From Escherichia coli (GTDB taxonomy: Bacteria > Pseudomonadota > Gammaproteobacteria > Enterobacterales > Enterobacteriaceae), in assembly GCF_002854065.1 (NCBI RefSeq), contig NZ_CP024147.1: DNA of 64,000 bases; one strand, written 5' to 3'. Position 1 is the stretch's first letter. Every line of letters starts with the position of its first letter. Of the stretch, positions 58,501 through 61,500 are shown in pieces. The position numbers are program-made.

Positions 58501-61500
58501 ATCCCCGGCGGCCCGGGTCGCGCACGCGGGTCTGGCAGGCGAAGAATGGCTGGAAGCCTTCCCGCTGCAGGCTTTCCAGCACGGTGATGGTGGGGATCCA
58601 GGTATAGTTCTCGCTTCTGGATGTGTGTTTCTCTTCCCCGAATACGCTGGGGACGACCTGCATCAGTTCTTCACGGGTTAAGGGGCGGTCACGGCGTATC
58701 TGGTTCGCATAACCAAAACGACTGGCTAATCGCATGATTTATTCCTTATGAATGAGTTAGCGGTATAAATGAAAAAGCCGCGTCTCCCGGAGAAGACGCG
58801 GCCTGATGGACGAAATGAATGACGTTTATTGTCTGAGAAGCCCTTCACTGGCGAGCTGCGTATTTTTATGGAAGGAGATCACCCAATAACCCCCATCGGG
58901 ATCGGGTAATAACCGGCCAGACTGTGATCGATTCAGATGCCATTTGGCAGCAAAAGAGCCTTCGGCAATAAACGTGATGTACAACCCGGCATATCTGTTG
59001 CTCCCTGAAAGTAAAAAGCCCCGGTCATGATGACCGGGGCCTGAAGGAGAGTGACCTGATTATCAGAAAGTCACATTCAGCGTGGCCTGACCGTTATAAC
59101 CTTCAACGCTGCTGCCGCTGACACTGTGGGCATAACCGGCCTGAACGCTCAGGGTGATATTTTCCCGGACACGGGCTTCCAGTCCGGCCTGCAGGTCCAG
59201 TGACGTGCCATTCCGGGACGGTGAGAACGTCATGTTACTGCCGGCGGCGGCTGTACCCATGCTCATGTCACCCCGGGAGCTGAAAGTGCGGATAACAGAA
59301 GGCTGTACCCACCAGTTCACCGGCAGTTCACTCACACGGTGTTTTGTACTGTCGCGCAGAGTGTCACGGGATGAGGTGCCTTCGCCAAAGGTCATATCGT
59401 TGTGGCTGCCCAGACGGAAGCCGGCACGCACATGTTGTGTACTGCCATGCCCGAACTTCACATAACCGGCGTTATCCTGGCCGTCATCCAGGGAGAGCCC
59501 CTGCCAGGTGTACTGCAGTTGTGGCTCCAGCATCAGGTTGTCAGTGATACTGAAGGGCAGACCGGTTTCCAGTGAGCCCAGCCAGCCCCAGCCCCGGGCG
59601 CGGAAGTCGTTATTGTCCGATGACGCTTTCATGCTGTGGCGGGTTCCCTGTGCCACAATGTCAGCCCACAGGCCGGAGGACGTGTGTGTCAGATTCAGGT
59701 ATCCGCCCAGGCTGCCGGCATCATCCCGGACCGTGCCGGCGCGGGAACCGTCATCATCCTTAACATCAACGGAAGAATGGCCTGCGGCACCATACACCCC
59801 TGTCGTCAGAGACATACCGGCAACCTCTGTTCTGAGCAGGTCACCCTCCAGACGGACGAAGCCATAGCTGCCGCTGCTTTCCGGCGTGGCTCCACGGGCA
59901 ATACCGCCGTTGTTATCGTGACCGAGATGACCGCCCTGAATGCTGAGACGGACGCTGTTATTTTCACCGTTTACACCGGTCTGATGGCTGCGGGAGCCTG
60001 CCAGAATCCGGTCATAGTCCATTGCCTGTGTCAACATGGATGTATACAGGGGGACTTCAGCACGATAAGCATTTTCACTGCGCAGGTACCAGTCTTCATC
60101 GCTGTCACGGTTCAGGGTGTAGTTAAAGGCGCCGGCCTGAAGCGGGCGACTCAGGGCAAACGCACCTTCTTCTGTGGTGGCACCATTCTGTGCATCCACA
60201 ACCCGGATACCCTGTCCGGAGGTTGCCACCCCGAGGTTACTGTTTCCGACATTTGTAAACGCAAGCCAGGTTTTGCCGGTTGCCTGACCACCATTAATCA
60301 CCAGCTGGTCAGAGGTATTGCTGCCATCAAGGCGAACACGCATATTGATGGTGCCGCCCTGACCAGTGAGGTTGGTGGTGGTCAGTTTATGGAACGTTAC
60401 CGGGGAGTCGCCTTTTGCAACAGCACGGCTCAGCACGGCATCCGGTGTTGTCTGATTATCAAAGTGAATCTCTCCTGCGTTAACAATATCGCCGGTACTG
60501 ACCACATCACCATTCAGTACCATACTGGCGCCTTTACTGAGCTGTGTTCTGCCACTCAGACTTCCCCCGGCAGCCAGCATCAGTGTTCCACGATGTCCGA
60601 CAGTGGTGTTGCTGGCCTGTCCCCCGGCATTAACCGTAAAGCTGCCGCCATTTTCCAGCAGCAGGCCGCTGGCCTGACCGGATATGCCATCAATACTGAA
60701 CTTACCGCTGGCATTGGTCCCCTCAACAGTGGCACCACTGTCTGCAATCAGGGCACCACCGGATGTCATGGTGACACCTGTTGCCTTACCACCGGCAGAC
60801 ACTGCCAGGGTTCCGCCGTCATCCACCCGTGTTTTCTGCGCTGAATGGCCTTCCAGTACATCCAGGCGACCGCCGGACTCCAGAACAACGCCGTCAGCCT
60901 TACCGTTTTCCACCGTGAAATTGCCCAGACGGTTGCTGCCAAGAACCGTTGCCGCAGTACTGGTGACCAGTGCTCCACCCTGTTTCAGGGTGACATGTGT
61001 GGCGGTACCACCGGCGTTCACCTGCAGTTTGCCTTTCTGGTTAACGGTGGTGAAATCCGCCAGACCACCTTCCTTGATAATCTGCCAGCCGTCACTGTTT
61101 ACAACAGTGCCAGACGCCGTACCGCCGTTGTGCACATACTGGTACCCCCCATTCAGCGTGGTATCCAGTGCGTGACCATGTACAGTCTGGTCGCCGCCGG
61201 CATAAACCACAGTGGTATTTGCTGTTCCTTCAGCAGCCACAATCTGACGACCATTTTCATTGATAGTGGTACGTACGGCATTTCCGCGAACAAACTGCCC
61301 GGTATCACCATTGTCTGCATCCGGTCCCCCTTCCGCGCCGGTATTCACAACCGTGTCGGTTGCCATTGCGCCGGATTTGACGGCCTGCCAGCCCTTCTCA
61401 TTAATGACGGTACCCGTTGCAATCCCGCCTTCATGTACCCACTGCTCACCGCCGTTCAGAGTGGTGTTCACTGCCTGCCCCTGAAGGCTCTGTCCGCCTC

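What the first reader, a model, noticed from the sequence alone, without database searches (positions are those of the whole stretch)
58736..59062. 327-bp non-coding gap with two terminator-like hairpins between the DUF932 gene and Ag43
Besides the Ag43 terminator (59012-59040), a second strong hairpin plus T-run on the minus strand (gccgcgtct...agacgcggc at about 58780-58805) closes a stretch with no credible ORF. This could be an unannotated small RNA or a remnant of a deleted gene.
Basis: seen in the sequence. Interest (0 to 1): 0.25.

Follow-up and report, generated by a model that had tools for sequence, protein, structure and literature searches.

The report
Decayed small gene with IS scar
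The 327-bp "empty" gap after the E. coli Ag43 adhesin gene is the wreck of a small DUF905 (YkfF-family) gene, gutted by an insertion-sequence fragment and flanked by the terminators of Ag43 and of the dead gene; it is ordinary genome decay, with no sign of a new small RNA.

Summary
The gap is exactly 58736-59062. Both minus-strand hairpins with T-runs are real and far stronger than chance (-24.5 and -22.6 kcal/mol; z -5.6 and -6.8).

The gap is not anonymous DNA. In related E. coli islands and in plasmids, a 77-aa DUF905/YkfF-family gene sits at this position, just upstream of the DUF932 gene. In the window only three pieces of it survive:
- its ribosome-binding site;
- its first 40 nt (58992-58953);
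- its last 31 nt including the stop codon (58856-58826).

The central 162 nt of the gene have been replaced by a 96-bp left-end fragment of an IS21-family insertion sequence (58857-58952). That fragment is 90% identical to ISEc12 over its first 59 bp.

Hairpin 1 is the Ag43 terminator. Hairpin 2 is the DUF905 gene's own terminator-like hairpin. A hairpin follows the DUF905 stop codon in nearly all lineages examined, with at least five unrelated stem sequences.

The leftover ORFs (31, 40 and 52 aa) match no relevant protein family, and their frames are not conserved among copies. I found no Rfam match and no promoter-like site in the gap, and no Hfq-bound RNA has been reported at the homologous O157 site.

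The small-RNA idea is unsupported. Interest is low.

The parts
59016..59042 (-). Ag43 intrinsic terminator hairpin. The T-run extends to about 59007. The hairpin starts 21 nt after the Ag43 stop codon (59063-59065).
   Evidence: Terminator scan. RNA fold -22.6 kcal/mol, z -6.8. Identical sequence follows Ag43c in E. coli Nissle.
58953..59005 (-). 5' stub of the DUF905 gene: Shine-Dalgarno GGGAG (59005-59001), ATG at 58992, and the first 40 nt of coding sequence (MPGCTSRLLP...). It carries a 1-nt deletion relative to intact copies.
   Evidence: Window 58953-59062 is 95-98% identical to places annotated 'DUF905 family protein' (H79/H80). Alignments A1 and A2. Translation.
58857..58952 (+). 96-bp fragment of the left end of an IS21-family insertion sequence (TGCGTATTTTTATGGAAGGAGATCAC...). 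No transposase genes, no convincing right end and no target-site duplication.
   Evidence: 53/59 identity to the left terminus of ISEc12 at four independent insertions, each with a 5-bp duplication. The ISEc12 transposase matches the IS21 family model NF033546. The inner part matches other IS21-type end fragments in L009, L020 and L021. Coordinates.
58826..58856 (-). 3' stub of the DUF905 gene: the last 10 codons (...LASEGLLRQ) and the TAA stop (58828-58826).
   Evidence: Window 58736-58856 is 95.9% identical to L003, where an intact annotated DUF905 CDS ends at the same stop.
58775..58804 (-). Hairpin 2: the terminator-like hairpin that natively follows the DUF905 stop codon. The T-run extends to about 58765. 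It starts 22 nt after the stop, and its stem ends 39 nt before the DUF932 ATG.
   Evidence: Terminator scan. Fold -24.5 kcal/mol, z -5.6. Present after intact DUF905 genes in L003, L023 and L024. Replaced by unrelated hairpins at the same place in L027, K-12 ykfF, L044 and L046.
58733..58748 (-). DUF932 ribosome-binding site (AAGGA, about 58748-58744) and ATG start codon (58735-58733). This is the downstream boundary of the gap.
   Evidence: Sequence. ORF 57917-58735 matches Pfam DUF932 at 4.2e-51. Annotated the same way in the identical locus L001.

Best explanation
The gap is a dead DUF905 (YkfF-family) gene lying between two minus-strand intrinsic terminators.

Shown:
- In the ancestral arrangement a 77-aa DUF905 gene lies directly upstream of the DUF932 gene. 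It has its own ribosome-binding site, and a GC-rich hairpin with a T-run follows its stop codon.
- In islands that carry Ag43, the DUF905 gene begins about 20 nt after the T-run of the Ag43 terminator.
- In the window's lineage only the first 40 nt and last 31 nt of the gene remain. A 96-bp left-end fragment of an IS21-family element (closest relative ISEc12) lies between them in place of 162 nt of coding sequence.
- Further 1-nt and 6-nt indels differ among copies, so no reading frame is maintained.

Inferred:
- An IS21-family element inserted near the 3' end of the gene.
- A later deletion removed most of the element together with the middle of the gene.
- The segment is transcribed only as read-through from the phase-variable Ag43 promoter. 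Both hairpins act as leaky terminators, so some transcription reaches DUF932, the antirestriction gene, RadC and the CbtA/CbeA genes.
- The segment has no function of its own.
For: Synteny and sequence:
- The gap, or parts of it, occurs in 4344 of 5426 complete E. coli genomes. In many of them the homologous place is annotated 'DUF905 family protein', either intact or frameshifted.
- Independent BLAST block boundaries (query 1-121 and 218-327) bracket exactly the 96-bp insert at 58857-58952.
- The intact homologue in L003 matches Pfam DUF905 at 5.9e-28, and the homologue in L023 matches the YkfF structure 2HJJ at 1.7e-28. The window's ORFs match neither.

IS origin of the middle:
- It is 90% identical over 59 bp to the left terminus of ISEc12 at four unrelated insertion sites.
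- The ISEc12 transposase is an IS21-family protein.
- A full ISEc12 lies in the same neighbourhood in strain PK13. It is inserted between hairpin 2 and the DUF905 stop codon, in the same orientation as the window's fragment.

Pseudogene status:
- Seven window-type copies carry different frame-breaking indels.
- The same scar is present in about 990 genomes at 89-100% identity.

Hairpin 2 belongs to DUF905:
- It follows intact DUF905 genes.
- Diverged DUF905 genes carry unrelated hairpins at the same place: GCCAGC.. in K-12 ykfF, GCCATGCTCC.. in a Klebsiella plasmid, GGCCACACC.. and GGCCATGTTTCC.. in IMG/VR contigs.

Read-through:
- In E. coli Nissle only 4 genes were upregulated when Ag43c switched on. 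One of them was 'yfjQ' (PMC11056357).
- The yfjQ qPCR primers map to the DUF932 gene directly downstream of Ag43c and of both hairpins.

Against a separate RNA gene: no Rfam hit and no promoter-like site in the gap.
Against: - No transcript data exist for the window-type gap, so a stable RNA ending at hairpin 2 cannot be excluded.
- The inner 37 bp of the insert (58914-58952) match only other short IS-type fragments, not a full-length element. The extent of the IS-derived part and the order of events (insertion, then deletion) are therefore inferred.
- The Nissle locus carries a frameshifted DUF905 gene, not the IS scar, so its read-through evidence is by analogy. The yfjQ primers could also match paralogous DUF932 genes elsewhere in the Nissle genome; this was not checked.
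- Hairpin 2 is strongly conserved and sits only 39 nt from the DUF932 start, with no visible promoter after it. It may therefore do more than terminate.
Confidence: 0.85

Rival explanations
1. The segment between the two terminators is an independent small-RNA gene on the minus strand (about 200-240 nt) that ends at hairpin 2.
For: A strong terminator with a U-run lies at the 3' end. The 251-nt stretch folds somewhat better than shuffles, z -3.2. The window-type sequence is retained in about 980 genomes.
Against: - No promoter-like site in the gap and no Rfam match at E<=1.
- Every part of the sequence is accounted for as gene stubs plus an IS fragment.
- The middle differs completely between island lineages (a 142-nt DUF905 sequence versus a 96-nt IS fragment), so no common RNA body is conserved.
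- No Hfq-CRAC peak is listed at the homologous hairpin in O157 Sakai SpLE1. All five SpLE1 peaks lie more than 29 kb away from it.
- The fold z-score is dominated by hairpin 2 itself.
Confidence: 0.05
2. Hairpin 2 is a regulatory attenuator rather than a plain terminator. It would be a conserved gate that sets how much upstream transcription (from Ag43 or DUF905) reaches the DUF932, antirestriction, RadC and toxin-antitoxin genes. It might also leave a stable 3'-end RNA fragment.
For: - A hairpin lies between the DUF905 stop and the next gene's start (about 15-45 nt upstream of that start) in nearly all lineages examined, with unrelated stems.
- No promoter is visible between hairpin 2 and the DUF932 ATG.
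- The downstream DUF932 gene rises together with Ag43c in Nissle, which implies partial read-through.
- Within the window-type stem, three of five variant types keep pairing through G-U wobble.
Against: - A plain leaky terminator explains the same facts.
- No alternative (anti-terminator) structure, leader peptide or ligand-type fold was found.
- Two lineages (L042, L045) have the hairpin without a T-run, and one (L048) has no convincing hairpin.
- Nothing was measured here.
Confidence: 0.12
3. The gap encodes a small protein: the 52-aa ORF 58826-58984, or the 31-aa ORF 58933-59028.
For: Both ORFs exist on the minus strand. The 52-aa ORF ends at the native DUF905 stop codon with the native C-terminus LASEGLLRQ.
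Against: - No match to DUF905; the only Pfam hit is a chance-level DUF2064 match (E about 0.1, 13 bits against a 25.8-bit cutoff).
- The 52-aa ORF starts at a TTG out of frame with the native ATG and exists only because a -1 and a +1 indel happen to cancel in this copy.
- Related copies stop inside the IS fragment or carry other indels.
- NCBI's annotation pipeline calls no gene here in any of the 30 best-matching genomes.
Confidence: 0.03

Closest known systems
DUF905 / YkfF family (Pfam PF06006; E. coli K-12 ykfF, structure 2HJJ)
   Same: Same position in the gene order (directly upstream of DUF932 in islands and plasmids). Its 5' and 3' ends are 96-98% identical to annotated DUF905 genes or pseudogenes. 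It has the same stop codon and the same downstream hairpin.
   Different: Only 71 of 234 nt survive. The 162-nt core is gone, the ORFs do not match the family model, and the frame is not conserved. It is a pseudogene remnant, not a member with function.
IS21-family insertion sequence ISEc12
   Same: The terminal sequence TGCGTATTTT.ATG.AAGGAGATCAC... is 53/59 identical to the ISEc12 left end. It includes the repeated GATC-containing motifs that are typical, from general knowledge of IS21-family ends, of transposase-binding repeats.
   Different: There are no istA/istB genes, no matching right inverted repeat and no 5-bp target duplication. The inner 37 bp match other short IS-type fragments rather than ISEc12. 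It is a solo-end scar from a related but unidentified IS21-family element.
Rho-independent (intrinsic) terminators
   Same: Both hairpins have GC-rich stems of 12-13 pairs and loops of 3-4 nt, and each is followed at once by a T-run. Each lies 21-22 nt after a stop codon on the coding strand.
   Different: Termination efficiency is untested. Co-induction of the downstream gene in Nissle suggests both are leaky. Hairpin 2 sits unusually close (39 nt) to the next gene's start.
IsrC / Rfam IS102 (RF00124), the known small RNA of the Ag43 locus
   Same: It lies in the same island and on the same strand, and it ends in a terminator hairpin.
   Different: It lies upstream of Ag43 (61928-62164), not in the gap. 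The gap gives no Rfam match.

Membership tests
DUF905 / YkfF protein family (PF06006) | Protein matches the family profile above the gathering score | tested here: not met
   The window ORFs (52 aa, 31 aa, and a repaired 55-aa version) give no DUF905 hit. The intact syntenic homologue scores 97.1 bits, E 5.9e-28.
DUF905 / YkfF protein family (PF06006) | Nucleotide homology and synteny with annotated members (directly upstream of DUF932, downstream of Ag43 or a GTPase-linked gene) | tested here: met
   Window 58736-58856 and 58953-59062 are 96-98% identical to annotated DUF905 loci. The gene order is the same in L002, L003, L022, L023, L024 and L027.
DUF905 / YkfF protein family (PF06006) | Uninterrupted reading frame conserved among copies | tested here: not met
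   Indels of -1, +1 and -6 nt differ among the seven window-type copies. The native frame stops inside the IS fragment.
IS21-family insertion sequence | Terminal inverted repeat beginning with TG and similar to a family member's end | tested here: met
   53/59 identity to the ISEc12 left end, starting at its first base TGCGTA.
IS21-family insertion sequence | istA transposase and istB helper genes | tested here: not met
   The insert is only 96 bp. The window has no other copy or related sequence.
IS21-family insertion sequence | Second inverted repeat and target-site duplication | tested here: not met
   The flanks GCGAGC and AAAGAG do not match each other. The inner end ...GGCAGCA only faintly resembles ...AATACGCA.
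Rho-independent terminator | GC-rich stem-loop followed directly by a U-run on the transcribed strand, downstream of a stop codon | tested here: met
   Both hairpins meet this. The scan found sites at these positions on the minus strand only.
Rho-independent terminator | Transcripts actually end there in vivo | not testable with these tools
   No RNA 3'-end data are available. Indirect evidence from the Nissle study points to partial read-through.
Base-pairing small RNA (Rfam family or Hfq-bound sRNA) | Match to a curated covariance model | tested here: not met
   cmscan of 54000-64000 at E<=1 found only IS102/IsrC at 61928-62164 and a chance microRNA hit.
Base-pairing small RNA (Rfam family or Hfq-bound sRNA) | Own promoter upstream of a terminator-ended short transcript | tested here: not met
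   No sigma-70-like site in the gap scored 9/12 or better. This is a consensus scan only, so weak or alternative-sigma promoters are not excluded.
Base-pairing small RNA (Rfam family or Hfq-bound sRNA) | Detected transcript or Hfq binding | tested here: inconclusive
   Published Hfq-CRAC peaks in O157 Sakai SpLE1 lie at 1381282-1422451. The homologous hairpin lies at about 1451.9 kb and has no listed peak. That locus is not the window-type variant, and Esr41 maps elsewhere.

The most novel reading that the evidence does not exclude
The hairpin that follows nearly every DUF905 gene examined lies about 15-45 nt before the next gene's start and has at least five unrelated stem sequences. It could be a conserved attenuator that gates read-through from upstream promoters, here the phase-variable Ag43 promoter, into the DUF932, antirestriction, RadC and CbtA/CbeA module. 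On this reading the dead DUF905 leader would still serve as its 5' context, or would yield a stable terminator-ended RNA.
Probability: 0.1. Interest if true: 0.35.

Novelty: already known. Interest (0 to 1): 0.08.

Why it matters
It matters little beyond annotation.

- About 980 complete E. coli genomes carry this unannotated stretch. It could be labelled as a DUF905 pseudogene with an IS21-family end fragment, which would keep it from being picked up again as a candidate small RNA.
- The one point of wider interest is a by-product. DUF905 genes are almost always followed by a terminator-like hairpin just before the DUF932 or antirestriction gene, and Ag43c and the downstream DUF932 gene rise together in Nissle. 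Phase-variable Ag43 expression may therefore be coupled, through leaky terminators, to the antirestriction and toxin-antitoxin genes of these islands. That idea is testable but modest.

Tried and rejected
- **Rfam scan** of 54000-64000 at E<=1: nothing in the gap.
- **Promoter scan**: nothing in the gap.
- **Pfam on all gap ORFs**: no relevant match.
- **Middle as diverged DUF905?** The multiple alignment suggested weak similarity. I rejected this because the segment matches IS21-family ends at 85-90% in many unrelated contexts.
- **K-12 as a reference for annotated RNAs**: CP4-6, CP4-44 and CP4-57 lack hairpin 2 and the remnant. Only the Ag43 terminator region is homologous, at 81%.
- **Esr41 (EcOnc14)**, the known small RNA of the O157 island that carries cah: it maps between z1181 and z1182, far from cah. 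The other SpLE1 Hfq-CRAC peaks are also elsewhere.
- **Parent IS of the inner 37 bp**: searches of plasmids and E. coli genomes found only other short fragments in L009, L020 and L021.
- **ykfF literature**: only an antisense ykfF RNA of about 500 nt in K-12 is reported (PMC5389530). That concerns a distant paralogue in a different context, so I did not pursue it.
- **Not run**: the large genome contigs and metagenome scans, and structure prediction. The finding did not justify their cost.

Full report
**Context**

The window's right end is a CP4-type E. coli island read on the minus strand. In order it carries:
- a GTPase gene (62280-63191);
- an IsrC-like RNA, matching Rfam IS102, at 61928-62164;
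- Ag43 (59063-61984);
- the gap under study;
- DUF932 (57917-58735);
- an antirestriction gene, a RadC/JAB gene, a DUF987 gene, then CbeA and CbtA.

An identical locus in strain Ecol_244 is annotated the same way, with nothing called in the gap.

**Checking the observation**

The gap is exactly 58736-59062, or 327 bp. The terminator scan finds two strong sites there, both on the minus strand only. One is at 59042-59016 (12 pairs) and the other at 58804-58775 (13 pairs), and each is followed by a T-run. Folded as RNA they give -22.6 kcal/mol (z -6.8) and -24.5 kcal/mol (z -5.6). None of 200 shuffles did as well for either. Neither has a T-run on the plus strand. The gap's only ORFs are minus-strand ORFs of 31, 40 and 52 aa.

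**What the sequence is**

Megablast against 5,426 complete E. coli genomes finds parts of the gap in 4,344 of them, at up to 9 places per genome. Only 981 genomes carry it full length. Sampling down the ranking shows that in many genomes the matching place is annotated 'DUF905 family protein'. It also shows that the match then splits into two blocks, query 1-121/130 and query 218-327.

Three examples show the range:
- In L003 an intact DUF905 CDS ends 90 bp upstream of the DUF932 gene.
- In L002 and in E. coli Nissle a frameshifted DUF905 pseudogene lies between Ag43 and DUF932.
- In O157, strain 272 (L004) and Sakai (L028) carry a three-gene insertion after cah, and only a DUF905 tail plus the hairpin remains before DUF932.

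The alignment shows that the window keeps three pieces of the DUF905 gene:
- the ribosome-binding site;
- the ATG at 58992 and the first 40 nt (MPGCTSRLLP...);
- the last 31 nt (...LASEGLLRQ, stop at 58828-58826).

The 162 nt that separate these blocks in an intact 234-nt gene are missing. The intact homologue in L003 matches Pfam DUF905 (E 5.9e-28), and the homologue in L023 matches the solved YkfF structure 2HJJ. The window's ORFs match neither.

**The middle is an IS scar**

A sensitive search with 58850-58965 hit about 9,100 places, including 843 on plasmids. These lie in unrelated contexts such as truncated ImcF, a phage replication endonuclease, Lom and IncF RepA. In four such places the match is the first 57-59 bp of an ISEc12 element carrying istA and istB. 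Comparing the four insertions defines the IS terminus (TGCGTATTTTCATGAAAGGAGATCAC...) and a 5-bp target duplication. The window matches this terminus at 53 of 59 positions, starting at its first base, 58857. The ISEc12 transposase matches the IS21-family model.

The inner part of the insert, up to ...GATGCCATTTGGCA, recurs next to similar ends in short IS-type fragments in S88, pRHBSTW-00673_2 and pSTEC639_1. The IS-derived piece therefore spans 58857-58952, or 96 bp. That is exactly the interval left uncovered by the two DUF905 blocks. It has no transposase genes, no clear right end and no target duplication, and the window holds no other copy.

I infer that an IS21-family element inserted near the 3' end of the gene, and that a deletion then removed most of the element and the gene's core. 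In support, strain PK13 carries a complete ISEc12 in the same orientation. It is inserted between hairpin 2 and the DUF905 stop codon, about 50 bp from the window's scar.

**It is a pseudogene**

Seven window-type copies, 92-100% identical, share the scar but differ by frame-breaking indels. Some lack a C at codon 10, one has an extra G inside the IS fragment, and one has a 6-nt deletion. In most copies the native frame runs into a stop inside the IS fragment. The window's 52-aa ORF exists only because its -1 and +1 changes cancel, and it starts out of frame with the native ATG.

**What the hairpins are**

Hairpin 1 begins 21 nt after the Ag43 stop codon and is the Ag43 terminator. It is identical in Nissle.

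Hairpin 2 begins 22 nt after the DUF905 stop codon and belongs to that gene. The same hairpin follows intact DUF905 genes in L003, L023 and L024. Diverged DUF905 genes carry different hairpins at the same place, mostly with T-runs:
- GCCAGC...GCTGGC after K-12 ykfF and its relatives;
- GCCATGCTCC...GGAGCATGGC on a Klebsiella plasmid;
- GGCCACACCTCCC... and GGCCATGTTTCC... in IMG/VR contigs.

In each case the hairpin lies shortly (about 15-45 nt) before the start of the next gene, which is DUF932 or an antirestriction gene. Two lineages have a hairpin without a T-run, and one has none that convinces. Within the window-type stem, three of five variant types keep pairing through G-U wobble.

**How it probably works**

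Nothing in the gap looks like a promoter. The DUF905 start lies about 20 nt beyond the T-run of the Ag43 terminator, and the DUF932 start lies 39 nt beyond the hairpin 2 stem. The simplest reading is a co-oriented gene string in which both hairpins are leaky terminators.

Published data fit this. When E. coli Nissle lost its cryptic plasmids, only four genes went up, among them Ag43c and 'yfjQ' (PMC11056357). The yfjQ qPCR primers map to the DUF932 gene immediately downstream of Ag43c, the DUF905 pseudogene and both hairpins. This is evidence by analogy. Nissle has the frameshifted DUF905 version, not the IS scar, and I did not exclude primer matches to paralogues.

**The small-RNA idea**

Four results count against an independent small RNA:
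- The gap has no Rfam match. The locus's known small RNA, IsrC, lies upstream of Ag43.
- Esr41, the small RNA of the O157 island that carries cah, maps between z1181 and z1182.
- None of the five Hfq-CRAC peaks in Sakai SpLE1 lies near the homologous hairpin.
- The body between the terminators is not conserved between island lineages, being DUF905 sequence in some and an IS fragment in others.

An independent small RNA is therefore unlikely, about 5%. A regulatory role for hairpin 2 beyond plain termination remains possible, about 10-12%.

**Verdict**

The gap is a DUF905/YkfF-family pseudogene carrying an IS21-family end fragment, bracketed by the Ag43 terminator and the DUF905 terminator. 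All of these are known kinds of features. Interest is low.

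Noticed in passing
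window 61928-62164 (-): Rfam IS102/IsrC match (71.5 bits, E 1e-10) upstream of Ag43, including the terminator at 61968-61941. The mechanical ORF list extends Ag43 to 973 aa across it, whereas the identical annotated locus gives 948 aa.
   Followed up: partly
L011 7208-7304 (K-12 ykfF-yafX), L027 1442-1544, L044, L046, L030-L043: Nearly every DUF905 gene examined is followed by a GC-rich hairpin, mostly with a T-run, shortly (about 15-45 nt) before the next gene's start. At least five unrelated stem sequences occur, so this looks like a feature of the whole family.
   Followed up: partly
L009 3501-3591; L021 about 2971-3043 and 3284-3351; L020 3501-3585: Miniature IS21-type elements or solo ends of 68-91 bp, some with both TGCGTATT... 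and ...AATACGCA termini, are scattered in E. coli chromosomes and plasmids. One lies in a defence island of strain S88, between a SLATT-domain gene and qatD.
   Followed up: partly
L050 1-1310 (strain PK13): A complete ISEc12 is inserted between hairpin 2 and the DUF905 stop codon downstream of Ag43, in the same orientation as the window's scar. This suggests repeated IS21-family insertion in this short region.
   Followed up: partly
L028 9252-13605 (O157 Sakai SpLE1); L004: In O157 a dynamin-family, RdcB and patatin-like phospholipase gene triplet lies between cah and the DUF905 remnant/DUF932. Only the DUF905 tail and hairpin 2 remain before DUF932.
   Followed up: no
L022 1689-5737 (E. coli Nissle): A published transcriptome and qPCR study reports co-upregulation of Ag43c and the DUF932 gene directly downstream. 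This implies transcription through two terminator hairpins and a possible link between Ag43 phase variation and the island's antirestriction and toxin-antitoxin genes.
   Followed up: partly
K-12 ykfF (L011 7305-7544): One paper (PMC5389530) reports no ykfF sense transcript but an antisense ykfF RNA of about 500 nt in K-12. Whether DUF905 loci in other islands have antisense transcription is unknown.
   Followed up: no
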